From Bacteroidia bacterium (lineage in GTDB: Bacteria > Bacteroidota > Bacteroidia > Palsa-965): a stretch of DNA of 64,000 nucleotides. The stretch is from assembly GCA_044344795.1 (NCBI GenBank), contig JBIJCF010000002.1, positions 98,845 through 162,844 on the forward strand, written 5' to 3'. The notes under the pieces were generated by a model, which made no database searches, was not told the DNA's origin, and saw only the letters and a list, made by a program, of their open reading frames with translations. Both the position numbers and the translations under genes were made by a program. Positions 6,620 to 35,410 of this stretch are shown piece by piece. Positions within the stretch are counted from its first letter, which is position 1. Every line of letters starts with the position of its first letter.

Positions 6620-6627
6620 GAGACGAT

Positions 6628-9972: not shown

Positions 9973-10032
9973 AAATCAAAGGTACACATACGCGCGGCAT
10001 TTGATTCGATTGAATAGAAATGAACAGCGACC

Positions 10033-10800: not shown

Positions 10801-10838
10801 CCCGATTTTCATTATTTTCGCGACCTTATTACTCCTCT

Positions 10839-12413
10839 GTGCAACGCCAGTTTGTTACCAATCTGATTATACTATTATTCCTGAATCTGCTCATTAAGCC
10901 GTTCTGGATTCTAGTTATTGAACCCAATGTTCAAAATGCTGTGGGTAATGCGGCGTATGGCGAATATTTCGCGCTGTTCAATTTTTCTTTCTTGTTAAAC
11001 ATTCTACTCGATTTCGGGATTACGAATTTTAATAACAAGAATATTGCCCAAAACAATCATCTTCTGACGAAGCATTTTTCGGGATTGTTTGTGTTGAAGC
11101 TGCTTTTAGCTGTATTATATATTATCGTTACGATCATAATCGGACTCACTATCGGTTATGACACGCGTCTTACCAAGTTGTTGTTGGTGTTGGGTTTCAA
11201 TCAGTTTCTTATTTCGCTCGTATTGTACTTGCGATCTAATTTGCAGGCTTTGCACCTATTTAAAACAGACGCATTAATTTCTGTACTGGATCGTATTATC
11301 ATGATAGGAATGGTGTCCGTGTTGTTGTGGACAACTTGGGTAGATAATGTCATGGACATCATGGATTTTGTATACGCGCAAACCATAGGTTATTTCCTGA
11401 CCGCAATAATTGCATTCCTCGCAGTAATCGGCAAAATGGAGCTGATTCGTTTAAAGTGGGATTGGCCGTTTTCGTTGATGATATTGAAAAAGAGCTTTCC
11501 GTTTGCAGTGTTGGTTTTGCTTATGACTTTTTATAACCGAATTGATTCTGTGATGCTGGAACGCCTGATGCCACAAGGAGATCCCGTTGCAGTGGCGCGT
11601 CTGCAAGAATTACGCAAACCTGGGATTGAATTGAACGAAACTCAGAAAATCGAACGTCACCAGCTGGAAGATCAACTGGAGCACACAGGATCGGAGCAAG
11701 CCGGTGTTTATGCTAAAGCATATCGACTATTGGATGCGACGAACATGATAGCGTATTTGTTTTCCGTATTGTTACTTCCTATGTTTTCGAGGATGCTGAA
11801 ATACAAGGAATCGGTAGAGCAATTGGTGAAGCTGGCATTTACATTATTAATAACGTTAGCCGTAATGGTTGCGGTGGGTTGCACATTTTACCGTTTTGAA
11901 ATTATGAAACTGCTCTATGGTGAAAATAGTGCAGGAAGTGTGAATACCGTGTTCCCGCTGCTGATGTCATGCTTTGTTGCTATTTCCACAACTTACGTTT
12001 TTGGTTCGTTGCTGACAGCGAATGGAAATTTGAAAGAATTGAATTGGATGGCATTTTGTGGAATGGTCATCAACATTGGATTAAATGTTGTTTTTATCAC
12101 GGTTTTCGAGTGGGAAGCAATTGGAACGGCGATTTCAAGCCTTGTTACCCAATTGTTAACAGCCGTCGCACAAGTGCTTATTGTGCAACGCAAGTTTAAA
12201 TTCCGTGTCAACTGGAGGTTGTTGACCACCTTGGTGGTGTTTGCGACCGGAGTAATTGCTTTGGCGGATTTCTGTTACGAGTATGTCTATCAACCGGGTA
12301 AGCTGGGTTGGGTAACCGGCTTCATTATATACTGTGCAGGCTCAGTGGCCTGGGCATTTGCAACGCGCCTGATCAGTGTGAAGGGCATGTTCCGTATCCT
12401 GAAGTACGGTTAG
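10839..12413 (+). CDS. Polysaccharide flippase (Wzx/MOP superfamily)
   Basis: Multi-TM protein of 524 aa with a GVYAKAYRLLD motif at the mid-protein loop, in a polysaccharide-locus context. GTG start. Confidence 0.7.
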   Translation: MQRQFVTNLIILLFLNLLIKPFWILVIEPNVQNAVGNAAYGEYFALFNFSFLLNILLDFGITNFNNKNIAQNNHLLTKHFSGLFVLKLLLAVLYIIVTIIIGLTIGYDTRLTKLLLVLGFNQFLISLVLYLRSNLQALHLFKTDALISVLDRIIMIGMVSVLLWTTWVDNVMDIMDFVYAQTIGYFLTAIIAFLAVIGKMELIRLKWDWPFSLMILKKSFPFAVLVLLMTFYNRIDSVMLERLMPQGDPVAVARLQELRKPGIELNETQKIERHQLEDQLEHTGSEQAGVYAKAYRLLDATNMIAYLFSVLLLPMFSRMLKYKESVEQLVKLAFTLLITLAVMVAVGCTFYRFEIMKLLYGENSAGSVNTVFPLLMSCFVAISTTYVFGSLLTANGNLKELNWMAFCGMVINIGLNVVFITVFEWEAIGTAISSLVTQLLTAVAQVLIVQRKFKFRVNWRLLTTLVVFATGVIALADFCYEYVYQPGKLGWVTGFIIYCAGSVAWAFATRLISVKGMFRILKYG

Positions 12414-12466
12414 TAGCGCGTCATTGCTGATTTTTCGTACTTTTAACCCTCTTTAATCGCAAATAC

Positions 12467-13495
12467 ATGAGTAATTCGAACGGGAACGGTAATTATTTCG
12501 ATTCCACCAGTCTTATTGAGTTTTTCTGGAGATGGCGTAAATCACTAATTATCATTGGCGTTGCCGCCGCAGTGGTGTCCTCCGTGGTGTCATTTATAAT
12601 TCGCGAAAAGTATAAATCAACAGTTATTCTTTTCCCGGTTTCTTCTAACTCCATCGCTAAGGCATTATTAACCGAGGATATGTCCGGAAAGCAAGACGTC
12701 TTGCAATTTGGGGAAGAAGAGCAAGCGGAGCAGATGTTGCAAATTTTGAATTCTGATGAAATCAGATCGAGAATTTGTAAGAAATACGATTTGATGAAAC
12801 ACTATCGAATCGACCCTAATGATCGTTATAAGCAAACACGCTTGTTTGAAACTTACAATGAAAATATCGTCTTTAAGCGCACTGAGTTTATGTCCGTAAA
12901 AATTGAGGTGATGGATGAAGATCCGATCCTCGCTGCGAAAATGGCTAACGATATTGCAGAACTCCTGGACTCGACAAAGGCTCGTATGCAGCGTGATCGT
13001 GCGGTTAATGCATTCAATATCGTATCTGCCGAATATTTCCGTAAAAAAGCGGAAGTAGATAAGATGCAGGATTCCTTACGTAAGCTCAACTTACTTGGGA
13101 TGTACGATTATGAATCACAATCGGAAGTAACAACTGAACAATACGCTATTGCAATGTCTAAAGGCGACCAACGCGCCATGGATAAACTGGGAGAACAGTT
13201 ACGGATTATTGGTCAATATGGTTCTGCCTATATGGCTGTGCGCGAAAACTTGTATATACAGCGCGAACAACTGAACTTATTAAAACGGAAATACGAGGAG
13301 GCGAAGGTAGATGCTGAGCAGGTGTTGACGTATAAATTCATTGTAAACAAAGCATTTCCGGCAGAACGAAAGTCATATCCGGTGCGTTGGCTGTTGGTTA
13401 GTGTCAGCACTATAACATCTCTTGTATTAGGAGTTTTGGTGTTGATATTGTTAGATAATCTGAAACAAATCAGAAAACGCGATCTTAAGTCATAA
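12467..13495 (+). CDS. Wzz/GumC-like polysaccharide chain-length determinant (PCP) protein, without a kinase domain
   Basis: It has an N-terminal TM and a C-terminal TM (VRWLLVSVSTITSLVLGVLVLILL) with a long coiled-coil region between them. Confidence 0.6.
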   Translation: MSNSNGNGNYFDSTSLIEFFWRWRKSLIIIGVAAAVVSSVVSFIIREKYKSTVILFPVSSNSIAKALLTEDMSGKQDVLQFGEEEQAEQMLQILNSDEIRSRICKKYDLMKHYRIDPNDRYKQTRLFETYNENIVFKRTEFMSVKIEVMDEDPILAAKMANDIAELLDSTKARMQRDRAVNAFNIVSAEYFRKKAEVDKMQDSLRKLNLLGMYDYESQSEVTTEQYAIAMSKGDQRAMDKLGEQLRIIGQYGSAYMAVRENLYIQREQLNLLKRKYEEAKVDAEQVLTYKFIVNKAFPAERKSYPVRWLLVSVSTITSLVLGVLVLILLDNLKQIRKRDLKS

Positions 13496-13503
13496 CCCCA
13501 ATT

Positions 13504-14478
13504 ATGCTCAGCTTTTCTAATACAGATTTATTGTCTTTGATCATCAAGCGATGGAAGCATGTGGCGATAATTGTGGGTGCTGCATTGATGGGCGCGTTTG
13601 TGGTTTCATCGGAGTGGATTATAAAGCCACGTTACAAATCAATGGCTGTTGTTTATCCGGTAAATATTATTCCGTATTCCGATGAATCACCAACGGAACA
13701 GTTGCTTCAGTTATTCCAGTCGGCTGACGTGCGTGGGATGATGATTAAACGATTTCGATTAGCTGAACATTACAATGTAGACACTACGGCGCGTGCAGGA
13801 AAGTCAAAATTATATCTCACCATTAGCGAGAACATTGACATTCGTAAAACAGAATACGAGTCAGTTAAAATTGAAATTTACGATGTAAATCCCGATACAG
13901 CTTGCAGCATGGTGAATGCACTAATCCATTTTGTGGATATTAAGGCACGTGCATTGCAGCGTGAAAAAACGCAAGAGGTGGTTAATATTTTTCAAGATCA
14001 GTTGAATCATAAAAAAGAGCAACTCGATTCTTTGGAAAAGGTATTAAACATGTTACGTGTGCGTTACGGACTTTTGGATTACAAATCTCAAGCGAAAGAA
14101 GTAACGAAAAGTTATTTGAAGATTGTCGGTGATGGCGGTTCCGGTCAACGCCTTGTTGTTGTTGATTCTTTGATGCGTAATTTGGAACAAAAAGGTGGGG
14201 AATTGTTGACGGCAAGTGAACAATTAAAAAGCACATTGGACGTGTACAACGCCATTCAGGTTGATTACGATCGTGCATTATCGGATTTAAAAAAGGAGTT
14301 AACGTACACGAACGTCATCACTCGCCCACTTCCCGCAGATCAAAAGTCGTATCCTATACGTTGGCTGATTATGGTAATCACGGGAATTTCATCGGTGCTG
14401 GTTGCCATTTTTGTGATTGTTATTTTGGAAGGTCGTTCTAATTTCTTGGCGAATGCCCGAAATCTGCAACAGGAATAG
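13504..14478 (+). CDS. Second Wzz/GumC-like PCP protein, a tandem paralogue
   Basis: Same architecture as the upstream gene. Shared motifs are YKS..V.YPV near the N-terminus and KSYP[IV]RWL before the C-terminal TM. Confidence 0.6.
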   Translation: MLSFSNTDLLSLIIKRWKHVAIIVGAALMGAFVVSSEWIIKPRYKSMAVVYPVNIIPYSDESPTEQLLQLFQSADVRGMMIKRFRLAEHYNVDTTARAGKSKLYLTISENIDIRKTEYESVKIEIYDVNPDTACSMVNALIHFVDIKARALQREKTQEVVNIFQDQLNHKKEQLDSLEKVLNMLRVRYGLLDYKSQAKEVTKSYLKIVGDGGSGQRLVVVDSLMRNLEQKGGELLTASEQLKSTLDVYNAIQVDYDRALSDLKKELTYTNVITRPLPADQKSYPIRWLIMVITGISSVLVAIFVIVILEGRSNFLANARNLQQE

Positions 14479-15922
14479 AGTTTTATGGTGGTTGTACGGA
14501 GCCAGCTTCGTATTCTTAACCATTAATGCGATCTGTATCGCTTATGAATTCTATTGGCTTAATCTGTTGCCGCCAATGCTTTTTGTCATTTTACTGGCTT
14601 TAGTAGCTTTGGATAAGTTATTACTGTTAGCGGTTTTCGTCACTCCTATATCCATCAATCTCGCCGATAACGAAGTTAACATCGGATTGAGTTTGCCTGC
14701 AGAACCTTTACTCATCGGTATTTTGTTCGTTTATGTTTTACGCATGTTACATGATGTGCGTTTTGATACTCGTTTCGTAAGACATCCTGTAACAATTGCT
14801 ATTATTCTGAATTTGCTATGGATGTTTATTACGTCTATAACCAGTGAGCTGCCTCTAGTGTCATTTAAATTCCTCTTGTCTCGTTTGTGGTTTGTGATAC
14901 CCATGTATTTTGTCGGTGTTCACATCTTCCGCGACATTGCAAACGTTAGAAGATTCCTGTGGTTGTACATCATTCCATTAACGATTGTAATAGGTTACAC
15001 GTTATATCAGCACTGGCTTTACGGCTTCGAGGAAGATCCTGCCCATTGGGTGATGTCTCCGTTTTATAATGATCATACCGCATATGGTGCTGCGCTTGCC
15101 ATGTTTTTTCCTGCGCTTGTGGCATTTTCGTGGAGCAAACGATACTCTAGCAATATTCGTATAATTTCGTTGATTCTGTTGGCCATCTTTGCAGTGGCGT
15201 TGGTATTCTCCTATACGCGTGCAGCTTGGTTAAGTCTTGCTGCCGTATTTGTACTGTACTTTATTTTTCTGTTTCGAATACGATTTATTTATTTATTCGT
15301 TCCTACAGCTCTTGCGGCTATAGTCGTCATGTTGTCGTGGACGGAAATACAAATGAAACTGGAGAAAAATCGTCAGGATACTTCTGATGATTTAGCGGAA
15401 CATATTCAATCTATTTCGAACATCAGTACTGATGCCTCCAATCTGGAACGTATTAATAGATGGAATTCTGCGTTCCGTATGTTTGAAGAACGTCCGTTTT
15501 TTGGCTGGGGACCCGGAACATACAGCTTCGTTTATGCGCCGTTTCAATTATCCGGAGAGAAAACGATCATTTCTACTAACGCCGGCGATATGGGTAATGC
15601 ACACTCCGAATACATTGGTCCGTTGTGTGAATCGGGTGTGTTGGGAACATTAACATTTCTGGGTATTGTATTTACCATTATATGGACAGGCTGGCGTTTA
15701 TATTATAAATTGACAGACAAGATTCATCGTGGGTTAATGTTGTCCATCTTGCTGGGAATGGTTACCTATTTCCTCCACGGCGCATTAAATAACTTCCTGG
15801 ATACGGACAAAGCTTCTGTTCCGTTTTGGGGTTTTGCAGCAATGTTGGTTGCAGCAGATTTGTGGTATGAACCGAAAAAGGACGAGCAGAGTAAGGAGAA
15901 GATCAGCAGTGAGCTGAAATAA
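14453..15922 (+). CDS. O-antigen ligase / polymerase family (Wzy_C domain) membrane protein
   Basis: Polytopic membrane protein with SYTRAAWLSLAA followed by a periplasmic loop. The ORF track opens at a TTG at 14417. I prefer the ATG at 14453, but the start is uncertain. Confidence 0.7.
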   Translation: MPEICNRNRVLWWLYGASFVFLTINAICIAYEFYWLNLLPPMLFVILLALVALDKLLLLAVFVTPISINLADNEVNIGLSLPAEPLLIGILFVYVLRMLHDVRFDTRFVRHPVTIAIILNLLWMFITSITSELPLVSFKFLLSRLWFVIPMYFVGVHIFRDIANVRRFLWLYIIPLTIVIGYTLYQHWLYGFEEDPAHWVMSPFYNDHTAYGAALAMFFPALVAFSWSKRYSSNIRIISLILLAIFAVALVFSYTRAAWLSLAAVFVLYFIFLFRIRFIYLFVPTALAAIVVMLSWTEIQMKLEKNRQDTSDDLAEHIQSISNISTDASNLERINRWNSAFRMFEERPFFGWGPGTYSFVYAPFQLSGEKTIISTNAGDMGNAHSEYIGPLCESGVLGTLTFLGIVFTIIWTGWRLYYKLTDKIHRGLMLSILLGMVTYFLHGALNNFLDTDKASVPFWGFAAMLVAADLWYEPKKDEQSKEKISSELK

Positions 15923-18224: not shown

Positions 18225-18250
18225 AAAAAAAAAGCGGCCATTCGACCGCT
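18225..18250 (-). terminator. Rho-independent terminator downstream of efp
   Basis: The minus strand reads AGCGGTC-GAAT-GGCCGCT followed by a T8 run. Confidence 0.6.
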
Positions 18251-18261
18251 CTCAGTATTCC

Positions 18262-18825: not shown

Positions 18826-18923
18826 GATCTTATTGTTTTGATTAAACTTGGGACGGCAAAGATAATATTGTTTACGAGAGTAGCCAATGTTGCCCAAACA
18901 ACCAATATGGTTGTCTTGCGTCT

Positions 18924-19583: not shown

Positions 19584-19591
19584 GTGAAAAA

Positions 19592-20221: not shown

Positions 20222-20233
20222 GGCACTTGCAGA

Positions 20234-23564: not shown

Positions 23565-23598
23565 TTTGTAATGTTAGCGAGGTTAAAACATATATTTG
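23565..23598 (+). promoter_or_regulatory. Possible Bacteroidota sigma-A-type promoter for the radical SAM operon
   Basis: TTTG at 23565-23568 and TATATTTG at 23591-23598 match the -33 TTTG / -7 TAnnTTTG consensus with 22-nt spacing. If real, the true start of the first gene is probably GTG 23608 rather than TTG 23596. Confidence 0.3.
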
Positions 23599-25110
23599 CG
23601 CAAACCCGTGGCTGTGTCGCTGATTCTTTTTAATCCTTTTGCTACTTCTCACAATCCACGCATTCCGAACAGTGTTTTGCAGGTTGCTGCTGCTATTGAC
23701 GGTAAATATGAGTGGGTGATAGTAGATGGCAATAAAGAAAAGGATCCATGGATTGCTATCCGTGAATATCTCAAAACCGGACAATACAAGTTTTTCGGAT
23801 GTACGGTAATGCCCGGTCCGCAATTGCGTCAAGCCATCCCGATAGCTAAAAAGGTTCGTGAAGAATTTCCGGATGTTAAAATTATTTGGGGTGGATATTT
23901 TCCATCTAATCATCCCCGTCCCGTTTTGTTCAGCGGTTATGTGGACGTGATTGTCAACGGAATGGGTGATAAGTGTTTTCCGATGTTGCTGGATGCATTA
24001 CAATCGAATTCAGCATTGGATGAAATTCCCAATTTGATTTTTCGCAAAGGAGAGCAACTGATAACAACCCGTAAAGAAGAAATTCTTGATCAGGAAAATT
24101 TCCCTGATTTGCCGTACGAAAAGCTGAACCGGTTTTACCCCATGAGTCGCTATCTCGTGCGAACATATTTAGGCTCTAAAACTATCGCCTATCATAGTAG
24201 TCACGGTTGTCCGTTTACCTGTTCATTTTGCGCCGTAGTTCCGATCTACAATGCTCGATGGAAGGGCCAGTCGGCAGAAAAAATTTATCGTAATGTTAAA
24301 CGGGTAAAGGAATTGTATGGCGGGAATGCCGTGGAGTTTCACGATAATAACTTCTTCGTTTCTGAAAAACGTACCGTTGACTTTGCGCGGTTAGTGAAAC
24401 CGGATAACATGATCTGGTGGGGAGAAGGGCGGATAGATACAATAGACAAGTATAAAGATGAGTCGCTTAAAATAATGCGTGAGTCGGGTTGTAAGATGAT
24501 CTTTTTCGGCGCTGAAACCGGCAGTGATGCGTTGCTGCAGAAAATGGACAAAGGCGGAACACAATCGCGAGAACAAATTATTCGATTTGCAAAACGCATG
24601 AAGGAAGTGGACATCATTCCGGAATATTCCTTTGTGCTTGGCTTTCCCGCTGATAGCGAAGAAATAGTTGCGCGATTAATACGCGAAGAAATTCAATTTA
24701 TTAAAGAAATTAAACTCGCGAATCCGAATACTGAAATTATAATTTACATTTATTCTCCTGTGCCTACCGAGAACAGCGAGTTGTACAACGAAGTACGTAA
24801 AACAGGATTCCAATTTCCTGAAAAGTTGGAGGACTGGATCAGCCCGCAATGGGAGAATTTTGATTTGAGAAAGAATCCTTTAACACCATGGCTCAAGCCA
24901 TACATGGTGGATCAGATCAAGAATTTTGAAACGGTATTGAATGGTTATTATCCTACTGTTTCCGATGTTCGTTTAAAGCCATGGCAAAAGAAGTTATTGC
25001 GCTTAATTTCGACATGGAGATATAAAATGAATTTGTTCTCCTATCCATACGAAATTAAGGTGCTCCAGAAATTATGGAAATACAGACAACCGGAAACTGA
25101 AGGATTTTGA
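23596..25110 (+). CDS. B12-binding-domain radical SAM protein (paralogue A, divergent)
   Basis: N-terminal Rossmann-like B12-binding region, a GCPFTCSFCAV CxxxCxxC cluster and GAETGSDALLQKMDKG. Start uncertain (TTG 23596 or GTG 23608). Confidence 0.85.
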   Translation: MRKPVAVSLILFNPFATSHNPRIPNSVLQVAAAIDGKYEWVIVDGNKEKDPWIAIREYLKTGQYKFFGCTVMPGPQLRQAIPIAKKVREEFPDVKIIWGGYFPSNHPRPVLFSGYVDVIVNGMGDKCFPMLLDALQSNSALDEIPNLIFRKGEQLITTRKEEILDQENFPDLPYEKLNRFYPMSRYLVRTYLGSKTIAYHSSHGCPFTCSFCAVVPIYNARWKGQSAEKIYRNVKRVKELYGGNAVEFHDNNFFVSEKRTVDFARLVKPDNMIWWGEGRIDTIDKYKDESLKIMRESGCKMIFFGAETGSDALLQKMDKGGTQSREQIIRFAKRMKEVDIIPEYSFVLGFPADSEEIVARLIREEIQFIKEIKLANPNTEIIIYIYSPVPTENSELYNEVRKTGFQFPEKLEDWISPQWENFDLRKNPLTPWLKPYMVDQIKNFETVLNGYYPTVSDVRLKPWQKKLLRLISTWRYKMNLFSYPYEIKVLQKLWKYRQPETEGF

Positions 25111-25796
25111 TTGACAATGTAAAACGAGCTGTTGCCCGCTATGTGGTAAAACCATGGGTTATTCGTTATTTACGAAAGCCGCGTCAATTTCAATTCCACG
25201 AATTGCGATTGCATATTGAGCCCGGTGTATTTCATCCGAGATTTTTTTTCAGTTCCCTGTTTTTTTCTGAATTCGTTCGCGAATTGAATTTGAAAGGCAA
25301 ATGTGTGGGTGAACCATGTTGCGGTAGCGGAATCATTGGCTTAACTGCGGCAATTCAAGGTGCAGAAGTTTTTTGCGGCGATATTGATCAACGTGCCGTA
25401 AAGAGTGTTCAGCGTAGTGTAGAATTGAACGAAGGAATTCTTGAAAAGAAAAATGTTCACATTCTTCATTCTGATGGTTTCGCCCAATTTCCGGACATCA
25501 ACTATGATTATATTTTCGTTAATCCGCCGTATTTTTTTAAGGCGGTGGAAAATCAAGCACAGTTAGCGTGGAATGCCGGAACGGAAGGAGAATTCTTTGT
25601 GCGTTTTTTTAGTGGTGTAGATAAAATTATATCGCCGACTACTAAAACGTACATGGTGCTTGCCGATAATTGTGAGTTGGATAAAATTCAGGCAATAGCA
25701 AAGCAATTCGATTTTTTATTGAAAGAACACCGCCGGAAGAAAATTCACTGGGAGGTTAACTATATCTTTGAAATTGTTAAGCAAGCCCATGAGTAA
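25107..25796 (+). CDS. Class I SAM-dependent methyltransferase of the NPPY (amino-group methylating) type
   Basis: GEPCCGSGIIGL (motif I) and FVNPPYF (motif IV), as in the HemK/PrmC, RsmC/D and N6-adenine methyltransferase families. TTG start overlaps the upstream stop by 4 nt. Confidence 0.7.
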   Translation: MIDNVKRAVARYVVKPWVIRYLRKPRQFQFHELRLHIEPGVFHPRFFFSSLFFSEFVRELNLKGKCVGEPCCGSGIIGLTAAIQGAEVFCGDIDQRAVKSVQRSVELNEGILEKKNVHILHSDGFAQFPDINYDYIFVNPPYFFKAVENQAQLAWNAGTEGEFFVRFFSGVDKIISPTTKTYMVLADNCELDKIQAIAKQFDFLLKEHRRKKIHWEVNYIFEIVKQAHE

Positions 25797-26745
25797 ATTT
25801 TCTGTGCAGGAGTTGGCGGTGTTACGCGCGTTGGCGTACTACGATATTTTTCGATTTCCTTTAACAATCGAAGAGGTGCGTTTAAATGCGGCGTTGTCAA
25901 TGAATCAGGAAGAGACACGTGAAGTGCTGAGAACCTTGTTGGCGAATGGTTGTGTTGAGAGCAACGGCGAATTCTTTGGGCTGCGTGGTTCACTCGAAAA
26001 CAATATTGCACAAAGATATCTAGGAGAACAGCGTAGAGCAGCGGTTGAAGGTAAAGTTCAACGTTACAGTCGTCGTATCATGCGTTTCCCTTTTGTAGAG
26101 GCGGTAGCCATTTCAGGATCTTACTCAAAAGGTGTTCTGTCGGAAGATGGTGATATAGATTACTTCATTATTACAAGTCAGGGTCGATTATGGATTTGCA
26201 GAACGTTGTTGATCTTGTATAAGAAGATTTTTTTGTTGAACTCAAGAAAGTTCTTTTGTGTAAATTATTTCATTGATACGGGTCATTTGTTAATTCCCGA
26301 TCAGAATCTTTTTACCGCGACAGAAGTCAAGTATTTATTGCCGGTTGGCAACTCCAATGCGATGCAGCAGTTCTACGAGGCTAACGACTGGACGAATAAC
26401 TATTTGCCCAACAAGCATACCACAGTGGCCATGCAAACAGACATACATAAAAAATCGATCTTGTCGCAAATGGTTCAGTCGATTTTTACTAAAAATGTAG
26501 GGGATCGGATCGATTATCAATTAATGCGATTAACCTTACGCAGATGGAAGAAGAAGTTTCCGCATTTTGATGAATCTGATTTTGATTTAAATATGAGAAC
26601 TCGGAAAAATGTATCTAAACATCACCCTCAAGGCTTCCAGGAAAAAGTCCTTGACGCATTGGCTGTTAAGATGCAAGAGTTGGAAGCTTTAAATTTGTAC
26701 ACGAGAGAGAATGAAATTCAAACTTCAAATTCTTCGGTTAGGTGA
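25768..26745 (+). CDS. Hypothetical protein with a Pol-beta-type nucleotidyltransferase-fold signature
   Basis: ISGSYSKGVLSEDGDIDYFII fits hG[GS]x9-13Dh[DE]h. The start is either TTG 25768 or, more likely, ATG 25789 (MSKFSVQELAVL), which overlaps the upstream stop as ATGAGTAA. Confidence 0.5.
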   Translation: MKLLSKPMSKFSVQELAVLRALAYYDIFRFPLTIEEVRLNAALSMNQEETREVLRTLLANGCVESNGEFFGLRGSLENNIAQRYLGEQRRAAVEGKVQRYSRRIMRFPFVEAVAISGSYSKGVLSEDGDIDYFIITSQGRLWICRTLLILYKKIFLLNSRKFFCVNYFIDTGHLLIPDQNLFTATEVKYLLPVGNSNAMQQFYEANDWTNNYLPNKHTTVAMQTDIHKKSILSQMVQSIFTKNVGDRIDYQLMRLTLRRWKKKFPHFDESDFDLNMRTRKNVSKHHPQGFQEKVLDALAVKMQELEALNLYTRENEIQTSNSSVR

Positions 26746-28184
26746 AAGTACTTTTAACACATTCCTATTTTTTGCGCTTCGATCCTAAGCAATTGAAAGC
26801 GGGAATGCCCTATCCGCCCTTGGGTACGTTGTTTGCTGCTGCTGTTCTTCGTGAGCGAGGACATGAAGTTAGAGTGCACGATATTCAACTTGCCGCAGGT
26901 CCGGAAGAAGTGCTCACCACGTTACAAAATTTCAAACCTGATGTTTTCGTAATTTATGATGATGGTTTTAATTACCTCACCAAAATGTGTCTTACGAATA
27001 TGCGGGAGGCAGCCTGGAAAATGCAAAATTGGGCTAAAGGACTGGGCTGTAAAGTTGTGGTGAGTAGTTCGGATTCAACGGATCATGCGGAAAAATATTT
27101 AGAGCATGGTGCGGATGTAGTCATTATCGGTGAAGCAGAAACCACCTTATCCGAATTGTTGGAAGCGTGGCAGAAGGATGCGGATATCGGAGTGATAAAG
27201 GGAACTGCCCGCATAGTCGCTGGGGCTGTCGTAAAATCTCCAAAACGCGATGTGTTGAAGGATTTGGACCAACTTCCGGAACCTGCGTGGGATATGTTGG
27301 ATATTGCGCCATACCGCACTATGTGGATGGAAAGGCACGGGTATTTTTCGATTAATATGGTGACCACACGAGGTTGCCCGTATAAGTGCAACTGGTGTGC
27401 AAAACCGATATACGGAAACCGATATAATTCTCATAGCGCACGGCGTGTGGTGAAGCAATTGAAAGCGTTGCAACAGAAATTTCAATTTACGCACGTGTGG
27501 TTTGCTGATGATATTTTTGGGTTGAAGCCCGGTTGGCTGAACGCATTCAGACAGGAGGTTGAGCGCGAAAAATTGAAGATTAAATATAAAATACAATCGC
27601 GTGCTGATTTGTTGTTGGAAGAAAATAATATTCAGGATTTAGCAGCATCGGGATGTGAAGAAGTATGGATGGGAGCGGAGAGTGGATCGCAAAAGATATT
27701 GGATGCAATGGATAAAGGGACGCGTGTAGAGCAAATAGCGGAAGCTTCTGCATTGCTGAAGCGCAATGGTATCCGCCCTGGATTTTTTCTACAGTTTGGA
27801 TATCCGGGAGAAACATTACAAGATATTCGTGCTACCATCGATATGGTGCATCAACTCTTGCCGGCTGATATTGGTGTTTCGGTTTCTTACCCCTTGCCGG
27901 GAACGCCATTTTATGAGCGTGTTAAGGAGGAACTTAAACAGAAATCGAATTGGACAGATAGTGATGAATTGGCATTGATGTTTAAAAATGAATATCCTCC
28001 GCAGTTTTATAAATTGTTACATCGTTATGTTCACCATTCGTACCGAAAGCGCCAATATGCACAAGGTGAAATGCGCAAAAGTGCGATGAAGCGTGTACTT
28101 GGTGAAACCTATCACGGCTATAAATCACAAGCGTTACGAAAACAATTGGCTCGAATAGTACCGGCTGCATATGAGTGGATTTGA
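26742..28184 (+). CDS. B12-binding-domain radical SAM protein (paralogue B)
   Basis: MKVLLTHSYFLRFDPKQ...PYPPLGTLF N-terminus, GCPYKCNWCAK cluster and VWMGAESGSQKILDAMDKG. Confidence 0.85.
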   Translation: MKVLLTHSYFLRFDPKQLKAGMPYPPLGTLFAAAVLRERGHEVRVHDIQLAAGPEEVLTTLQNFKPDVFVIYDDGFNYLTKMCLTNMREAAWKMQNWAKGLGCKVVVSSSDSTDHAEKYLEHGADVVIIGEAETTLSELLEAWQKDADIGVIKGTARIVAGAVVKSPKRDVLKDLDQLPEPAWDMLDIAPYRTMWMERHGYFSINMVTTRGCPYKCNWCAKPIYGNRYNSHSARRVVKQLKALQQKFQFTHVWFADDIFGLKPGWLNAFRQEVEREKLKIKYKIQSRADLLLEENNIQDLAASGCEEVWMGAESGSQKILDAMDKGTRVEQIAEASALLKRNGIRPGFFLQFGYPGETLQDIRATIDMVHQLLPADIGVSVSYPLPGTPFYERVKEELKQKSNWTDSDELALMFKNEYPPQFYKLLHRYVHHSYRKRQYAQGEMRKSAMKRVLGETYHGYKSQALRKQLARIVPAAYEWI

Positions 28185-28947
28185 TCAACATGCATTGGCA
28201 TATGATGCTGAGTTCACGCAAACACTAATTGGTAAAGCGCAACGCGATAGCGTGTATCGTTTTTTAGCAAAACGACTGGGCATGAACAGCACTGTTTTAG
28301 AGTTGAATTGCGGAACCGGTGAAGATGCGTTGTGGTTTGCTCATCGTGGGCATCGCGTTGTAGCTACGGATATTTCGGAGGTGATGTTGAAGCGAGCGCG
28401 GGAGAAAGCCGAACACCTACAACAAATAATTTTTAAACAGGCTGATCTCACTCATCCGGAACAATTACCGGACATCAGTGCAGATTTAATCTTTTCCAAT
28501 TTTGGCGGACTCAATTGTCTTAGCCCGCAGCATTTAACGCGTCTGTCTCCGGCACTGGCAGCGCGTATTGAACCGGGAGGTCGTTTCATTGCAGTGGTGA
28601 TGGGTAAAAGTTGCACATGGGAACAAATTTATTTTTCCCTAAAGGCTAAGCGTGCTTGGTCGCGAAAGTCTGAACAACCTGTTGCCGCGCACGTGGCCGG
28701 TGAGATCGTCAATACTTGGTATTACACTCCTCAGGAGTTTTATGGCTTTTTTAGTGCTAGTTTCCGAATGGGTGCTGTTAAGCCTATAGGCCTTTTTGTT
28801 CCGCCCTCTTACCTTAATCCGTATTTTAAAAATAAGCCCGCAATGTTTGGTGTATTGCGTACATTGGATCGTAGTCTGGCACATTTTAAATTTCAAGCTG
28901 ATTTTGCAGATCATTACATAATTGAATTGATCCCACGTGTATCATGA
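28171..28947 (+). CDS. Class I SAM-dependent methyltransferase (Methyltransf_11/25-like)
   Basis: VLELNCGTGEDALWFA motif I and DLIFSNFGGLNCL. Confidence 0.8.
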   Translation: MSGFDQHALAYDAEFTQTLIGKAQRDSVYRFLAKRLGMNSTVLELNCGTGEDALWFAHRGHRVVATDISEVMLKRAREKAEHLQQIIFKQADLTHPEQLPDISADLIFSNFGGLNCLSPQHLTRLSPALAARIEPGGRFIAVVMGKSCTWEQIYFSLKAKRAWSRKSEQPVAAHVAGEIVNTWYYTPQEFYGFFSASFRMGAVKPIGLFVPPSYLNPYFKNKPAMFGVLRTLDRSLAHFKFQADFADHYIIELIPRVS

Positions 28948-30314
28948 AAGTGTTGTTAACGCATGCGTATTATTTAAATGAAGATCCCAAGGAACAGGCG
29001 ATCATGAAGCCGTATGTTCCACTAGGAATACTTTATTTATCGGCGTATTTGGACGAGCACAAGGTGGAACATGAAGTCTTTGACAGTACCTTTTCGCGAT
29101 TCGATGAGCACTTTGGGCATATTCAGAACAAACAATACGACGTAGTTGCGATTTACACGAATCTAATGACGAAACTGAATGTGCTGAAATTAATCAAAGC
29201 CATAAAAAATGATGGTTCGTTAAAACATTCACGAATTTTACTTGGTGGCCCTGAGGTGCGAAATCATGCTGAAGCTTTTTTAAACTATGGTGCGGACGTG
29301 TTAATTGTCGGGGAAGGTGAAGAAACATTGTTGGAGGTAGTGCAGCACTTACAAACCGGAAGTAGCAAGTGGCCGGAGATTGCAGGAACAATTATTCTGA
29401 AGGAAGGGAAAGTTCATCAGCATCAGGAACGTGCTTTAGTTAAAGATATCAATACGTTGCCTTTTCCTAATAGACATCGTGTAGACTTGACCAAGTATCA
29501 AGATGTATGGAAAAAGTATCACGGGTATAGCATGGTTTCCATGAGCACTATGCGAGGTTGTCCGTACACTTGCAAATGGTGTAGTCGTGCTGTTTACGGC
29601 GGAACATATCGTCGCCGCAGTGCAAAGCTAGTGGTGGATGAAATTGACATTATTAAGCGCGATTATAATCCTGATAAAATTTGGTTTGTTGATGATGTGT
29701 TCACGATTAATCATAAATGGTTACGTGAATTTGCCGATGAGCTGGAGCGAAGAAATGTTTGTGTTTCGTATGAAATCATAACGCGTGCCGATCGCATGAA
29801 TGATGAGGTGATCGAACTGCTGCGAAGAAGTGGTTGTTTTCGCGTGTGGATTGGAGCAGAAAGCGGTTCACAGAAAATAATTGACGCCATGGATCGCCGT
29901 GTTGACGTTATGAAAGTGCGAGAGATGATTAAGAAAAGTCGTCGGGCAGGAATCGAGGCAGGAACATTCATTATGTTGGGATATCCGGGCGAATCACGAA
30001 CGGATATCAAAGAAACCATCGAACATTTGGTGGATGCGGCTCCTGATTTGTACACGATTACCGTCGCTTATCCGATTAAAGGAACACGCTTGTACGAAGA
30101 AGTACAGGACAAATTGACTACGTTTTTGAATTGGGCAGAGTCAACAGATCGGGACTTAGATTTTAAACGCACACATAGCAGAAAATATTACGACTACGCC
30201 GTACGTTGGGTGTATAATGCAGTTGCAGCAAGTAGGACAGATTCGCTTTTCGCAAAAATGAAGTACACGCTCAAAGGTTGGGCGATGCAACTATTTATGC
30301 TCTTTGCATCCTAG
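28944..30314 (+). CDS. B12-binding-domain radical SAM protein (paralogue C, closest to B)
   Basis: MKVLLTHAYYLNEDPKE...PYVPLGILY N-terminus, GCPYTCKWCSR cluster and VWIGAESGSQKIIDAMDRR. Confidence 0.85.
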   Translation: MKVLLTHAYYLNEDPKEQAIMKPYVPLGILYLSAYLDEHKVEHEVFDSTFSRFDEHFGHIQNKQYDVVAIYTNLMTKLNVLKLIKAIKNDGSLKHSRILLGGPEVRNHAEAFLNYGADVLIVGEGEETLLEVVQHLQTGSSKWPEIAGTIILKEGKVHQHQERALVKDINTLPFPNRHRVDLTKYQDVWKKYHGYSMVSMSTMRGCPYTCKWCSRAVYGGTYRRRSAKLVVDEIDIIKRDYNPDKIWFVDDVFTINHKWLREFADELERRNVCVSYEIITRADRMNDEVIELLRRSGCFRVWIGAESGSQKIIDAMDRRVDVMKVREMIKKSRRAGIEAGTFIMLGYPGESRTDIKETIEHLVDAAPDLYTITVAYPIKGTRLYEEVQDKLTTFLNWAESTDRDLDFKRTHSRKYYDYAVRWVYNAVAASRTDSLFAKMKYTLKGWAMQLFMLFAS

Positions 30315-31555: not shown

Positions 31556-31663
31556 AAGTAAGGCAAGGTTTTCATTTAATCACACCTCCACACGTGGTAA
31601 TAAAAATGAACTCCCCGATAATAAGTATCTTCGTTACACGTTATTGACGTGATACTTCAAACT

Positions 31664-33217: not shown

Positions 33218-33218
33218 C

Positions 33219-33644: not shown

Positions 33645-33701
33645 CTTGTTCTATCGCCTAAGATCGCGTATCTTTAACGAGTTTACTCAGCCTGCCAAAC
33701 T

Positions 33702-35332: not shown

Positions 35333-35410
35333 TTCTTGCTTTTGTTATTTGATACGTGTACATTGTAGTATCAAAAATTAATCGCACACCTCATTCTCCA
35401 TTCTATTTAC

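What the first reader, a model, noticed from the sequence alone, without database searches (positions are those of the whole stretch)
23596..30314. Six-gene overlapping operon: three B12-binding radical SAM enzymes, two SAM methyltransferases and a nucleotidyltransferase-fold protein, with no assignable pathway
**Seen directly**
- Six same-strand ORFs are joined by overlaps of 4, 8-29, 4, 14 and 4 nt, so they look like one translationally coupled operon.
- Three products carry an N-terminal B12-binding-like domain plus a CxxxCxxC cluster: GCPFTCSFCAV, GCPYKCNWCAK and GCPYTCKWCSR.
- Paralogues B and C are close. Both start MKVLLTH.Y.L..DPK and share VW.GAESGSQKI.DAMD. Paralogue A is divergent.
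- One NPPY-type methyltransferase, one Methyltransf_11-like methyltransferase and a GS...DxD nucleotidyltransferase-fold protein are interleaved with them.

**Established knowledge**
- Class B radical SAM enzymes methylate unactivated C or P centres. Examples are Fom3, GenK, TsrM, PoyB/C and hopanoid HpnP/HpnR.
- B12-radical SAM relatives also do lipid-tail chemistry, for example archaeal GDGT ring synthases and tetraether synthase.

**Inference**
- The operon probably performs several sequential radical alkylations or rearrangements plus two conventional methylations on one substrate, and the nucleotidyltransferase may activate that substrate.
- I see no precursor-peptide ORF, PKS/NRPS, terpene cyclase, glycosyltransferase or transporter inside the operon. 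The substrate could therefore be a lipid, lipid A, a polysaccharide, a nucleotide or a protein.
- I cannot match this gene combination to any characterised cluster.
Basis: partly seen in the sequence, partly recalled or inferred. Interest (0 to 1): 0.8.

Follow-up and report, generated by a model that had tools for sequence, protein, structure and literature searches.

The report
B12 radical-SAM glycan-tailoring gene cassette
This is a real, intact six-gene operon of an uncultured Bacteroidota bacterium, found in hundreds of Bacteroidota species, that most likely uses three vitamin-B12-dependent radical enzymes, two methyltransferases and a nucleotidyltransferase to decorate a cell-surface sugar polymer, although its product has never been described.

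Summary
**Observation: confirmed.**
- Six overlapping + strand ORFs (23596-30314) encode three B12-binding radical SAM proteins (A, D, F), a HemK-like NPPY methyltransferase (B), a winged-helix/Pol-beta nucleotidyltransferase (C) and a class I methyltransferase (E).
- No curated NCBIfam equivalog reaches its cut-off. C matches no NCBIfam family at all.

**What I added.**
- The C family is large: at least 534 species genomes, almost all Bacteroidota.
- The cassette is modular. C-D is the near-invariant core (adjacent in 51 of 54 loci). A-B and E-F are frequent add-on pairs. All six genes occur together in 23 of 54 loci, 19 of them in the window's order.
- Adjacency to lpxD is limited to the window's own lineage.
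- Elsewhere the cassette sits in or beside surface-polysaccharide loci: GT87, GT4, GT9, Bac_transf, Wzx-like, EpsG, Wzy_C and Wzz genes.
- Natural fusions join C to a GT4 glycosyltransferase and to a polyprenyl-phosphate sugar phosphotransferase.
- I found no adjacent precursor peptide and no lipid genes. C has no plasmid or viral copies, and no anti-phage defence system is matched.

**Best reading (about 0.55).** It is a cytoplasmic tailoring module for a lipid-linked surface glycan: nucleotidylation plus radical C-methylation or rearrangement plus N/O-methylation.

**Limits.** The chemistry and the product are unknown. I found no publication describing the cassette.

The parts
23590..23597 (+). 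TATATTTG, a possible Bacteroidota-type -7 promoter box (TAnnTTTG) in the 109-bp divergent intergenic region between lpxD and gene A
   Evidence: - Read directly from the sequence.
- The consensus is recalled from my own knowledge.
- The sigma-70 scan found nothing above chance.
- The box overlaps the TTG start of A, so the exact start of A is uncertain by about 12-18 nt.
23596..25110 (+). Gene A: B12-binding radical SAM protein (504 aa), the divergent paralogue; usually paired with B
   Evidence: - Pfam Radical_SAM 52.5 bits and B12-binding 34.3 bits.
- CPFTCSFC is present in 44 of 48 orthologues.
- Best NCBIfam hits are PhpK at 110.6 bits (cut-off 600) and ApyD at 104 bits (cut-off 750), so it is not a member of either.
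- Orthologues are 58-71% identical.
- A-B are adjacent in 30 of 34 loci that hold A.
25107..25796 (+). Gene B: HemK-like (NPPY) class I SAM methyltransferase, predicted N-methyltransferase (229 aa)
   Evidence: - Pfam MTS 41.6 bits.
- NCBIfam PRK14968.1-3 scores 71 bits (cut-off 162) and PrmC 52.7 bits (cut-off 199).
- N139, P140 and P141 are conserved at 95% or more, and Y142 and the following AW..G at 90% or more, in 60 sequences.
25768..26745 (+). Gene C: winged-helix + Pol-beta-type nucleotidyltransferase + basic helical C-terminal domain (325 aa; likely true start ATG 25789, 318 aa). Core of the cassette together with D
   Evidence: - Pfam NTP_transf_2 24.4 bits. No NCBIfam family matches.
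- S116, G117, S118, K121, D129, D131 and the SKHHP motif are invariant, and D170 is conserved in at least 90%, in 21 sequences.
- AlphaFold model pLDDT 84.6 shows a winged helix, an NTase core and a helical domain.
- Foldseek gives only weak hits: DrrA, MntA, AadA, HalB.
- 6182 cluster representatives match the family profile.
- Fusions exist with GT4, Bac_transf and a methyltransferase.
26742..28184 (+). Gene D: B12-binding radical SAM protein (480 aa), the constant partner of C
   Evidence: - Pfam Radical_SAM 71.2 bits and B12-binding 42.2 bits.
- CP[YF]KCNWC is present in 71 of 76 orthologues.
- Best NCBIfam hit is HpnJ at 124 bits (cut-off 578).
- D is adjacent to C in 51 of 54 loci.
28171..28947 (+). 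Gene E: class I SAM methyltransferase (Methyltransf_25/11; 258 aa), usually paired with F
   Evidence: - Pfam hits.
- Best NCBIfam hit is CpaM at 53 bits (cut-off 180).
- Best PDB match is plant phosphoethanolamine N-methyltransferase, E 4e-12, which is only generic similarity.
- Motifs LE.NCGTG.DA and FS.FGGLNC are conserved.
- In loci without F its place is taken by a methyltransferase only 25-31% identical.
28944..30314 (+). Gene F: B12-binding radical SAM protein (456 aa), paralogue of D (36% identity)
   Evidence: - Pfam Radical_SAM 81.8 bits and B12-binding 50.5 bits.
- CPYTCKWC is present in 44 of 48 orthologues.
- Best NCBIfam hit is PhpK at 158 bits (cut-off 600).
- Nearest PDB sequences are AprD4 (6fd2) and MgmA (9ccb), E about 1e-16.
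- E-F are adjacent in 36 of 38 loci that hold F.
8842..15922 (.). Possibly associated surface-polysaccharide genes about 7.7 kb upstream: GT4 (8842-9972, -), FkbM-type methyltransferase (10033-10800), Wzx-like flippase (10839-12413), two Wzz (12467-13495, 13504-14478) and Wzy_C (14417-15922)
   Evidence: - Pfam assignments (and for the L003 orthologue of Wzy_C).
- The Wzz and Wzy_C proteins belong to the same families that lie directly beside the cassette in other lineages.
- The link to the cassette in this window is inferred, not shown.

Best explanation
The operon is a cytoplasmic tailoring module for a polyprenyl-phosphate-linked (or otherwise activated) sugar of a surface glycan. That glycan could be O-antigen or LPS, exopolysaccharide or capsule, or the protein O-glycan of Bacteroidota.

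**Proposed order of events**
1. A phosphoglycosyltransferase and glycosyltransferases encoded elsewhere build the repeat unit on undecaprenyl phosphate.
2. C uses an NTP to put a nucleotidyl (or phospho-linked) group on a hydroxyl or phosphate of that intermediate. C is a winged-helix plus Pol-beta nucleotidyltransferase whose layout resembles antibiotic O-nucleotidyltransferases (ANT type). The added group would give a handle or an activated position.
3. D, the constant partner of C, performs radical chemistry at an unactivated carbon of the sugar or its side chain. It would use a reduced [4Fe-4S] cluster, SAM and cobalamin. C-methylation is the most likely reaction. Dehydration, ring contraction or cyclisation cannot be excluded.
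4. The optional pairs add further decorations. F and A would each carry out another radical step. B would N-methylate an amino or amide nitrogen (NPPY motif). E would O- or N-methylate.
5. The finished unit is flipped, polymerised or ligated by Wzx, Wzy/EpsG, Wzz, Wzy_C or GT87-type enzymes.

**Shown:** the domains, the conserved catalytic motifs, the modular co-conservation, the glycan-gene neighbourhood and the fusions of C.

**Inferred:** the substrate, every chemical step and their order.
For: **Enzyme identities and conserved catalytic motifs**
-.

**Core pairing**
- C and D are adjacent in 51 of 54 loci. A-B and E-F travel as pairs.

**Context across lineages**
- GT87 lies in 24 loci, GT4 in 12, Wzy_C in 10 and Wzz in 9.
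- Bac_transf lies divergently next to C in the Crocinitomicaceae clade, which includes Crocinitomix catalasitica ATCC 23190.
- EpsG, GT9, FkbM methyltransferase, polysaccharide deacetylase and SGNH/AlgX acyltransferases also occur.
- 39 of 56 long loci, and 20 of 28 lineages, have such a gene within 10 kb.

**Less biased tally, one locus per lineage**
- 19 of the 104 ORFs flanking the cassette are glycan-assembly genes, against 6 of the 87 outermost ORFs. One-sided Fisher p = 0.016.

**Fusion ('Rosetta stone') proteins, each with all C motifs intact**
- GT4+C: P0126, found in two independent sources. It sits in locus L088 between Wzy_C and a D-type radical SAM gene.
- Bac_transf+C: P0128, in locus L089.
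- Methyltransferase+C: P0133.
-.

**The window itself**
- A Wzx/Wzz/Wzy_C/GT4/FkbM locus lies about 7.7 kb upstream. Its Wzz and Wzy_C belong to the families seen beside the cassette elsewhere.

**Precedents, from established knowledge and not tested here**
- Fom1 cytidylylates the substrate of the B12 radical SAM methylase Fom3.
- GenK and GenD1 are B12 radical SAM C-methylases that act on sugars.
- AprD4, the nearest solved relative, acts on an aminoglycoside sugar.
Against: - No glycan gene lies inside the operon or directly next to it in this window. Its immediate neighbours are lpxD and an HD-domain gene.
- In about 8 of 28 lineages the cassette stands among housekeeping genes.
- The near/far enrichment is modest, about 3-fold. 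Glycan genes are common in Bacteroidota genomes, so some association is expected by chance.
- Two of the three fusions are single observations and could be assembly or gene-calling artefacts.
- An MFS transporter follows F in several lineages, which would also fit a small exported metabolite.
- To my knowledge no B12 radical SAM enzyme has been shown to act on a lipid-linked surface glycan.
- C has no convincing structural relative, so its activity as a nucleotidyltransferase, and its acceptor, are unproven.
Confidence: 0.55

Rival explanations
1. The cassette makes or modifies a small soluble metabolite, such as a modified nucleoside, sugar, cofactor-like molecule or secondary metabolite. The product is exported or imported by the MFS transporter often found next to gene F. 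The glycan genes nearby would then be neighbours by chance.
For: - Orthologous MFS genes (48-53% identical) lie directly after F in two lineages, in different orientations. A second MFS family occupies that position in other lineages.
- MFS_1 is found in 3 of 104 flanking ORFs and is not among the families listed for the outermost ORFs.
- The cassette stands alone among housekeeping genes in about 8 of 28 lineages.
- Known multi-enzyme B12 radical SAM sets (thienamycin ThnK/L/P, the bza operon BzaC/D/E) make small molecules (established knowledge).
- The best NCBIfam hit of E is the corrinoid-protein-associated methyltransferase CpaM. D hits BzaD at 106 bits. Both are far below their cut-offs.
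Against: - No scaffold-forming enzyme (PKS, NRPS, terpene cyclase, ThiC/BzaF, PEP mutase) appears in or near the cassette.
- The window has no MFS gene next to the operon.
- The fusions of C to GT4 and Bac_transf point to membrane-bound lipid-linked intermediates.
Confidence: 0.2
2. The cassette modifies a ribosomally made peptide or a protein, in the manner of proteusin or bottromycin maturation or of the modifications of methyl-coenzyme M reductase. The B12 radical SAM enzymes would C-methylate side chains. The HemK-like B would N-methylate Gln or Asn amides. The winged helix of C would act as a peptide-recognition element.
For: - HemK family enzymes methylate glutamine amides, and B has the NPPY motif.
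- MgmA, a protein glutamine C-methylase, is among the nearest solved relatives of F and A.
- A hits the RiPP radical SAM enzyme ApyD at 104 bits, and the best hits of D and F also include RiPP C-methylases. All are far below cut-off.
- Bottromycin and polytheonamide clusters also hold several B12 radical SAM genes (established knowledge).
Against: - No small ORF is conserved next to the cassette across lineages. The only recurrent one is a lineage-specific 75-aa lipoprotein with a metal-binding Cys motif.
- C gives no PqqD/RRE hit.
- No leader peptidase or ABC exporter is among the recurrent neighbours.
- The intergenic space in the window is about 109 bp upstream and none downstream.
Confidence: 0.08
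3. The cassette modifies a membrane lipid or lipid A, for example by methyl-branching or cross-linking acyl or isoprenoid chains. Hopanoid HpnP/HpnR/HpnJ, the archaeal GDGT ring synthases and the ladderane-associated B12 radical SAM enzymes would be the models.
For: - In this window the operon is transcribed divergently from lpxD-lpxC/fabZ-lpxA.
- D and F hit HpnJ at 124-137 bits and the ladderane-type lipid radical SAM family at 112-134 bits.
Against: - These scores are 3-5 times below the curated cut-offs and no better than hits to unrelated subfamilies.
- Adjacency to lpxD is seen only in the window's own lineage (L003, L004, L008) and in none of the other lineages.
- No fatty-acid, isoprenoid, squalene-hopene cyclase or ether-lipid gene recurs near the cassette.
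- phmmer found no match to the solved tetraether synthase at E <= 1e-3.
Confidence: 0.07
4. The cassette modifies RNA or nucleotides, or is an anti-phage defence system built on a nucleotidyltransferase and methyltransferases.
For: - NPPY methyltransferases also include rRNA and tRNA m2G/m6A enzymes. B hits Cons_hypoth95/RsmD weakly.
- Pol-beta nucleotidyltransferases often act on RNA.
- Foldseek lists MntA and HalB, which are defence or toxin-antitoxin nucleotidyltransferases, among its weak hits.
Against: - PADLOC gives only generic domain-level hits.
- There are no viral or plasmid copies.
- The genes look vertically inherited, are strongly conserved, and show no compositional anomaly.
- No RNA gene or RNA motif is nearby.
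- Three B12 radical SAM enzymes are not a known feature of any RNA-modification or defence system.
Confidence: 0.04

Closest known systems
Class B (cobalamin-dependent) radical SAM enzymes that act on sugars: GenK and GenD1 (gentamicin C-methylases) and AprD4 (apramycin C3' dehydratase, PDB 6fd2)
   Same: - An N-terminal B12-binding-type Rossmann domain and a CxxxCxxC radical SAM barrel.
- AprD4 is the best PDB sequence match of A and F.
- These enzymes act on unactivated carbons of carbohydrates, which fits the glycan context found here.
   Different: - Similarity is only distant: E 1e-10 to 1e-16, and 57-88 bits against the AprD4 family cut-off of 500.
- The known enzymes sit in actinobacterial aminoglycoside clusters and act on soluble pseudo-oligosaccharides.
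- This cassette is a widespread Bacteroidota chromosomal module beside Wzx/Wzy-type loci.
- AprD4 does not methylate, so methylase chemistry cannot be assumed here.
Fom1 (cytidylyltransferase domain) and Fom3 (B12 radical SAM C-methylase) of fosfomycin biosynthesis
   Same: The logic is the same. A nucleotidyltransferase puts a nucleotide handle on the substrate, which a B12 radical SAM enzyme then modifies. C and D are an almost obligatory adjacent pair.
   Different: - The Fom1 cytidylyltransferase has a different fold (MobA/GT-A-like) from the Pol-beta fold of C (my recollection, not tested).
- Its substrate is a phosphonate, but no PEP mutase is found in any locus.
- The resemblance is functional analogy only.
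MgmA (PDB 9ccb), the B12 radical SAM glutamine C-methyltransferase of methyl-coenzyme M reductase
   Same: It is the second-best solved sequence relative of F and A. Its identity comes from PMC11796369.
   Different: - F scores 104 bits, D 99.6 and A 69 against the family cut-off of 360.
- It is an archaeal protein-modifying enzyme, and no protein substrate is indicated here.
ANT-type O-nucleotidyltransferases (AadA, kanamycin nucleotidyltransferase, Lnu) and minimal nucleotidyltransferases (MntA, HalB)
   Same: - An hG[GS]...DxD...D catalytic core followed by a helical domain.
- They appear as weak Foldseek hits.
- ANT enzymes nucleotidylate sugar hydroxyls.
   Different: - No sequence similarity to any PDB chain is detectable.
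- Foldseek TM-scores are only 0.21-0.25.
- C has an extra N-terminal winged helix and a unique basic C-terminal motif (RWKKKFPHF ... NVSKHHPxGFQ).
HemK/PrmC/PrmB/MTQ2 N5-glutamine methyltransferases
   Same: An NPPY motif with the following AW..G..G segment, and a class I fold.
   Different: - B scores 52.7 bits against the PrmC cut-off of 199, and 71 bits against 162 for its best archaeal relative.
- It is shorter than PrmC: the 229 aa of B align only with positions 51-173 of the 253-position PrmC model.
- It is encoded in a biosynthetic operon rather than with release factors.

Membership tests
Class B (cobalamin-dependent) radical SAM superfamily | CxxxCxxC motif for the [4Fe-4S] cluster within a Radical_SAM (PF04055) domain | tested here: met
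   - A, D and F all score above the Pfam gathering score.
- The Cys triad is conserved in 44 of 48, 75 of 76 and 48 of 48 orthologues.
Class B (cobalamin-dependent) radical SAM superfamily | N-terminal cobalamin-binding Rossmann domain (PF02310) | tested here: met
   - Scores are 34.3, 42.2 and 50.5 bits against a cut-off of 32.1.
- A is marginal.
- AprD4, the nearest solved relative, shows that such a domain does not guarantee use of cobalamin (my recollection).
Class B (cobalamin-dependent) radical SAM superfamily | Binds cobalamin and transfers a methyl group from methylcobalamin | not testable with these tools
   This needs purified, reconstituted enzyme and a substrate.
Named B12 radical SAM equivalogs (PhpK, HpnJ, HpnR, BchE, ladderane-type lipid rSAM, BzaD, MgmA, AprD4, ApyD, TsrM-type) | Score at or above the curated NCBIfam cut-off | tested here: not met
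   - Best scores are 110.6 bits for A, 124.3 for D and 157.8 for F.
- The cut-offs of those best-hit models are 578-600 bits, and those of the named models range from 360 to 750 bits.
HemK/PrmC protein N5-glutamine methyltransferases | NPPY catalytic motif | tested here: met
   FVNPPYF is present. N139, P140 and P141 are conserved at 95% or more, and Y142 at 90% or more, in 60 sequences.
HemK/PrmC protein N5-glutamine methyltransferases | Family-level score (TIGR03534, TIGR00536, TIGR00537) | tested here: not met
   Scores are 52.7 against 199.1, 46.3 against 115.5 and 41.9 against 87.
Pol-beta-type nucleotidyltransferase superfamily | hG[GS] and DxD motifs plus a third acidic residue on a beta strand, and a Pfam NTP_transf_2 score above the gathering score | tested here: met
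   - S116, G117 and S118 are invariant, as are D129 and D131. D170 is conserved in at least 90%.
- PF01909 scores 24.4 bits against 21.
- The model places these residues on strands 110-116, 131-136 and 164-170.
Pol-beta-type nucleotidyltransferase superfamily | Structural match to solved members | tested here: inconclusive
   Foldseek lists DrrA (E 9e-4, TM 0.24), MntA, AadA and HalB at probability 0.9 or higher but with low TM-scores.
Wzx/Wzy-dependent surface-polysaccharide gene cluster (cassette as a tailoring module) | Co-location with an initiating phosphoglycosyltransferase, glycosyltransferases, a flippase, a polymerase or ligase, and a chain-length regulator | tested here: inconclusive
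   - Met in many other lineages.
- In the window itself these genes lie about 7.7-15 kb upstream, separated from the operon by the lpx/efp block.
- They are absent from about 8 of 28 lineages within 10 kb.
RiPP biosynthetic gene cluster | A precursor-peptide gene and a recognition element (RRE/PqqD), peptidase or exporter next to the modifying enzymes | tested here: not met
   - No conserved small ORF.
- No PqqD/RRE hit.
- No peptidase or ABC exporter among the recurrent neighbours.
Known anti-phage defence systems (PADLOC) | System-specific protein models | tested here: not met
   Only generic methyltransferase and radical SAM domain matches.

The most novel reading that the evidence does not exclude
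The C-D pair, with its optional A-B and E-F modules, is the first cobalamin-dependent radical SAM system that remodels sugars of a lipid-linked cell-surface glycan. It would be primed by a new kind of winged-helix nucleotidyltransferase. Many environmental Bacteroidota would then carry C-methylated or carbon-skeleton-rearranged sugars on their envelope. Their surface structure, and hence phage and grazer recognition, would depend on the supply of vitamin B12.
Probability: 0.4. Interest if true: 0.75.

Novelty: new variant of a known kind. Interest (0 to 1): 0.6.

Why it matters
- B12-dependent radical SAM enzymes are known mostly from antibiotic, cofactor, bacteriochlorophyll, hopanoid and peptide pathways.
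- A module of up to three of them, conserved in at least 534 Bacteroidota species genomes and tied to surface-glycan loci, would open a new substrate class for this chemistry.
- It would predict unknown C-branched or rearranged sugars in abundant lake, soil, marine and wastewater bacteria.
- It would also link cell-surface structure to the availability of cobalamin, a vitamin many Bacteroidota cannot make.
- Protein C defines a large family (6182 cluster representatives) with no curated NCBIfam family and no solved relative.
- Cultured carriers exist: Crocinitomix catalasitica ATCC 23190 and Acidiluteibacter ferrifornacis S-15. The question is therefore directly testable.

Tried and rejected
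- **Curated family assignment.** NCBIfam and Pfam gave only superfamily-level hits.
- **Solved structures.** By sequence only distant relatives appeared (AprD4, MgmA, TokK, CysS, RimO), and none for C. Foldseek with the model of C gave nothing convincing.
- **Lipid A link.** Rejected as a general explanation, because lpxD adjacency is confined to the window's lineage.
- **HD-domain gene as an OxsA-like partner of a B12 radical SAM enzyme.** Considered. The adjacency is limited to the window's lineage and its nearest sister lineage and is absent elsewhere. I did not include the gene.
- **RiPP precursor search.** A search of small ORFs in 84 loci found nothing general.
- **Phosphonate hypothesis** (raised by the PhpK-like hits). 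A PEP-mutase motif scan found only one chance match.
- **Defence system.** The PADLOC scan was negative.
- **Mobile element.** No plasmid or viral copies of C and no GC anomaly.
- **Riboswitch or RNA elements.** None in the window.
- **Promoters and terminators.** Sigma-70 promoter and terminator scans were at chance level, so they say nothing about operon boundaries. A two-box Bacteroidota promoter pattern was not found upstream of A.
- **Literature.** Eight of my ten allowed literature searches were run; none returned a paper on this cassette, and one identified 9ccb as MgmA.
- **Not possible or not done.**
  - Structure prediction of the unknown neighbour families c5, c6 and c7 was not possible, because only window proteins and returned homologues may be submitted.
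  - I ran no further search on A, D or F, because the top hits would only have been orthologues.

Full report
**1. The observation**

The region 23596-30314 holds six + strand ORFs:

| Gene | Coordinates | Length |
|---|---|---|
| A | 23596-25110 | 504 aa |
| B | 25107-25796 | 229 aa |
| C | 25768-26745 | 325 aa |
| D | 26742-28184 | 480 aa |
| E | 28171-28947 | 258 aa |
| F | 28944-30314 | 456 aa |

- The junctions overlap by 4, 29 (or 8), 4, 14 and 4 nt.
- The 8-nt value applies if C starts at ATG 25789. That start matches the N-terminus of its 80%-identical homologue P0003.
- Pfam confirms Radical_SAM plus B12-binding domains above the gathering score in A, D and F. It also confirms an MTS methyltransferase domain in B, NTP_transf_2 in C and Methyltransf_25/11 in E.
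- D and F are 36% identical. A is 23-26% identical to either.
- GC content (0.41-0.43) does not differ from the surroundings.
- The start of A is slightly uncertain. Its TTG lies inside TATATTTG (23590-23597), which resembles the Bacteroidota -7 promoter box as I recall it. However, similarity to orthologues begins at about residue 3.
- Sigma-70 promoter and terminator scans are at chance level and uninformative.
- Gene F and the convergent HD-domain gene (30311-31555, - strand) overlap by 4 nt at their 3' ends.

**2. No characterised family fits**

- Against NCBIfam, A, D and F hit many B12 radical SAM models: PhpK, HpnJ, BchE, the ladderane-type lipid rSAM, BzaD, ApyD, MgmA, HpnR and AprD4. 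The best scores are 110.6 (A), 124.3 (D) and 157.8 (F) bits. The cut-offs of these named models range from 360 to 750 bits, and no one family stands out.
- B resembles HemK-family enzymes: 71 bits against 162 for its best archaeal relative, and 53 against 199 for PrmC. E is a generic class I methyltransferase whose best hit is CpaM at 53 bits against 180.
- C matches no NCBIfam family.
- The nearest solved sequences for A and F are AprD4 (6fd2) and 9ccb, at E 1e-8 to 1e-16. A paper identifies 9ccb as MgmA, the glutamine C-methylase of methyl-coenzyme M reductase (PMC11796369).
- A profile of the C family finds nothing in the PDB by sequence.
- An AlphaFold model of C has mean pLDDT 84.6. It shows:
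  - a winged helix at residues 13-72;
  - a nucleotidyltransferase core, with the conserved SGS, DxD and D170 on consecutive strands;
  - a helical C-terminal domain.
- Foldseek gives only weak matches (DrrA, MntA, AadA, HalB) at TM 0.21-0.25.
- The C family alignment shows conserved catalytic-type residues. It also shows two strongly basic conserved motifs, RWKKKFPHF and NVSKHHPxGFQ. I take these, by inference, as a phosphate- or membrane-binding surface.

**3. Distribution and modularity**

- C has 1932 detectable homologues in the 90%-clustered database.
- In the exhaustive search it has 6182 representatives at 50% clustering, 1044 of them at E <= 1e-30.
- A scan of one genome per species found at least 534 genomes with a relative. 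Almost all are Bacteroidota: Bacteroidia and Flavobacteriales MAGs and Crocinitomicaceae. Cultured carriers are Crocinitomix catalasitica ATCC 23190, Acidiluteibacter ferrifornacis S-15 and Flavobacteriaceae RhTr2.
- The window's nearest relatives are uncultured Bacteroidota (L003, L004, L008). They show the same gene order, with LpxD and the HD protein 96-97% identical.
- I mapped the six proteins onto the 89 loci fetched, 85 of which carry C after removing redundant copies. Counts below are for the 54 loci with at least 6 kb on both sides of C:

| Feature | Loci (of 54) |
|---|---|
| D present | 53 |
| D adjacent to C | 51 |
| E present | 46 |
| B present | 40 |
| F present | 38 |
| A present | 34 |
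| All six present | 23 |
| Window's order (ABCDEF) | 19 |

- A-B are adjacent in 30 loci and E-F in 36.
- Other arrangements are BCDEF, CDEF, ABCDE, CD followed by B-A on the other strand, and ABDEFC.
- The unit is therefore a C-D core with two optional radical SAM plus methyltransferase pairs.
- The radical SAM proteins are well conserved (53-71% identity). B, C and E evolve faster (25-50%).
- The Cys triads are conserved within each orthogroup.

**4. Context points to surface glycans, not lipid A**

In the window:
- The operon is divergent from lpxD-lpxC/fabZ-lpxA and convergent with an HD/HD_assoc_2 gene.
- The lpxD adjacency occurs only in the window's own lineage.
- The HD adjacency occurs in that lineage and in one sister lineage.

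Recurrent neighbours elsewhere:
- a GT87-type GT-C glycosyltransferase (24 loci);
- a 377-aa protein of unknown function (19 loci);
- a multi-pass membrane protein (18 loci);
- a 242-aa membrane protein (17 loci);
- an outer-membrane beta-barrel protein (13 loci);
- GT4 (12 loci), Wzy_C (10) and Wzz (9);
- EpsG-like polymerase, FkbM methyltransferase, polysaccharide deacetylase, SGNH/AlgX and MBOAT acyltransferases, GT9, a SPASM radical SAM protein and extra methyltransferases;
- in the Crocinitomicaceae, a WcaJ-type polyprenyl-phosphate sugar phosphotransferase lying divergently next to C.

Counts:
- 39 of 56 loci of at least 15 kb have such a gene within 10 kb.
- So do 20 of 28 lineages, defined by C at 60% identity or more.

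A less biased test:
- Glycan genes are common, so I took one locus per lineage and scanned two sets of ORFs with Pfam: the two ORFs on each side of the cassette (104 ORFs) and the outermost ORFs (87).
- The flanking set gave Wzy_C 5, GT87 4, GT4 4, Wzz 4 and Bac_transf 2, a total of 19.
- The outermost set gave 6.
- One-sided Fisher p = 0.016. The enrichment is real but modest, and only the 25 most frequent families per set are visible.

The strongest evidence is fusion proteins from the exhaustive search:
- P0126 (681 aa) is GT4+C. It is seen in two independent sources. Its locus L088 reads Bac_transf, DUF1972, Wzy_C-TPR, RgpF, Wzy_C, GT4-C, a D-type radical SAM gene, carbamoyltransferase and a B12 radical SAM gene.
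- P0128 (533 aa) is a small Bac_transf phosphoglycosyltransferase fused to C. Its locus L089 holds two GT4 genes, Wzy_C and an epimerase.
- P0133 is a class I methyltransferase fused to C.
- All three keep the winged helix, SGS/DxD, NSxKYFCVNY and SKHHP motifs.

In the window itself, a GT4, an FkbM methyltransferase, a Wzx-like flippase, two Wzz and a Wzy_C lie at 8842-15922. The Wzz and Wzy_C proteins belong to the same families that flank the cassette elsewhere.

**5. Mechanism proposed**

- Shown: the enzyme classes, the conserved catalytic motifs, the pairings and the glycan association.
- Inferred: C nucleotidylates, or adds a phospho-linked group to, a sugar of a polyprenyl-PP-linked or otherwise activated intermediate at the cytoplasmic face of the membrane.
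- Inferred: D then performs cobalamin-dependent radical chemistry on it. C-methylation is most likely. AprD4-type dehydration, HpnJ/OxsB-type ring contraction or BchE-type cyclisation cannot be excluded.
- Inferred: F and A add further radical steps. B N-methylates an amine or amide. E adds an O- or N-methyl group.
- Inferred: the unit is then flipped and polymerised or ligated.
- The Fom1/Fom3 pair of fosfomycin biosynthesis is a precedent for a nucleotide handle that serves a B12 radical SAM methylase. GenK, GenD1 and AprD4 are precedents for sugar substrates. These precedents come from established knowledge and were not tested here.
- I put the glycan-tailoring reading at about 0.55. Confidence in any particular chemical step is much lower.

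**6. Rival explanations**

- **Small exported or imported metabolite (0.2).** This is the main rival. Orthologous MFS genes follow F in several lineages, and the cassette stands alone among housekeeping genes in about 8 of 28 lineages. No scaffold-forming enzyme is present.
- **Peptide or protein substrate (0.08).** This fits the HemK-like B and the MgmA similarity. But there is no conserved precursor ORF, no RRE, no peptidase and no exporter.
- **Lipid or lipid A (0.07).** This rests only on the window's lpxD neighbourhood and on sub-threshold HpnJ and ladderane hits.
- **RNA modification or defence (0.04).** PADLOC, plasmid, viral and Rfam searches give no support.

**7. Novelty**

- No curated family fits, no solved structure is close, and none of the literature searches found a paper describing this cassette.
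- The enzyme superfamilies are known. The combination, the C family and the apparent glycan context are not.
- I therefore rate it a new variant of a known kind, with interest 0.6. It is a solid, testable lead with cultured carriers. Its function still rests on genomic association alone.

Noticed in passing
window 17244-23486 (- strand): - A typical Bacteroidota lipid A block reads lpxD (22434-23486), fused lpxC/fabZ (21007-22437) and lpxA (20234-21010).
- It continues with an ABC ATPase (19592-20221), efp (18262-18897) and a second, divergent lpxD paralogue (17244-18170, about 31% identical to the first).
- A 219-aa secreted protein with no Pfam hit lies on the + strand at 18924-19583.
   Followed up: partly
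window 30311-31555 (- strand): - An HD/HD_assoc_2 gene converges on gene F, and the two overlap by 4 nt at their 3' ends, leaving no room for a terminator.
- The gene is about 80% identical in a sister lineage (L001, L005), where it also lies near the cassette.
- An OxsA/OxsB-like partnership was considered, but the adjacency is absent in all other lineages.
   Followed up: partly
window 5231-7860: A DUF1800/DUF1501 gene pair of unknown function lies upstream of the polysaccharide genes. A 903-aa protein with a weak beta-propeller hit lies at 2322-5033 (- strand).
   Followed up: no
window 31649-38509: By synteny with L003, this stretch holds a response regulator with a PglZ domain, TsaE, alanine dehydrogenase, a 137-aa ORF and a 1032-aa M4 peptidase with PKD domains and a type IX secretion (Por_Secre_tail) signal.
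   Followed up: no
window 56001-58000: GC content rises to 0.50, against 0.41-0.45 elsewhere, inside an 819-aa - strand ORF (55559-58018). It was not examined.
   Followed up: no
L023 8918-9187, L025 9030-9257, and six other loci: In one group of lineages a 75-aa lipoprotein lies between a ROK sugar kinase and gene B. It has a duplicated Cys motif (YQCPMKCEG...GKCPMCQMDMKE), which suggests a heavy-metal-binding domain.
   Followed up: no
L072 16963-18375, L086 15284-16699, L087 18462-19910, L061 6288-7751, L057 18783-20213: - Some loci carry a fourth radical SAM paralogue, only 20-27% identical to A, D or F.
- The two scanned against NCBIfam (L072, L086) have HpnJ as best hit, at about 150 bits and far below cut-off.
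- In L072 no B12-binding domain is detected by Pfam.
- Seven loci also hold a SPASM-domain radical SAM gene.
   Followed up: partly
L082 593-1726 (family c5, 19 loci); L065 6553-7728 (c6, 18 loci); L027 15234-15962 (c7, 17 loci): - Three families with no Pfam or NCBIfam hit travel with GT87 and the cassette.
- c5 has a CxWCH motif in the sequence examined (L082 593-1726).
- c6 is a multi-pass membrane protein, possibly a flippase.
- c7 is a 242-aa membrane protein.
   Followed up: partly
L007, L021, L024, L031, L041 and other loci without F: Where F is missing, the methyltransferase in the E position is only 25-31% identical to the window's E, against 38-50% elsewhere. It is probably a non-orthologous replacement.
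   Followed up: no
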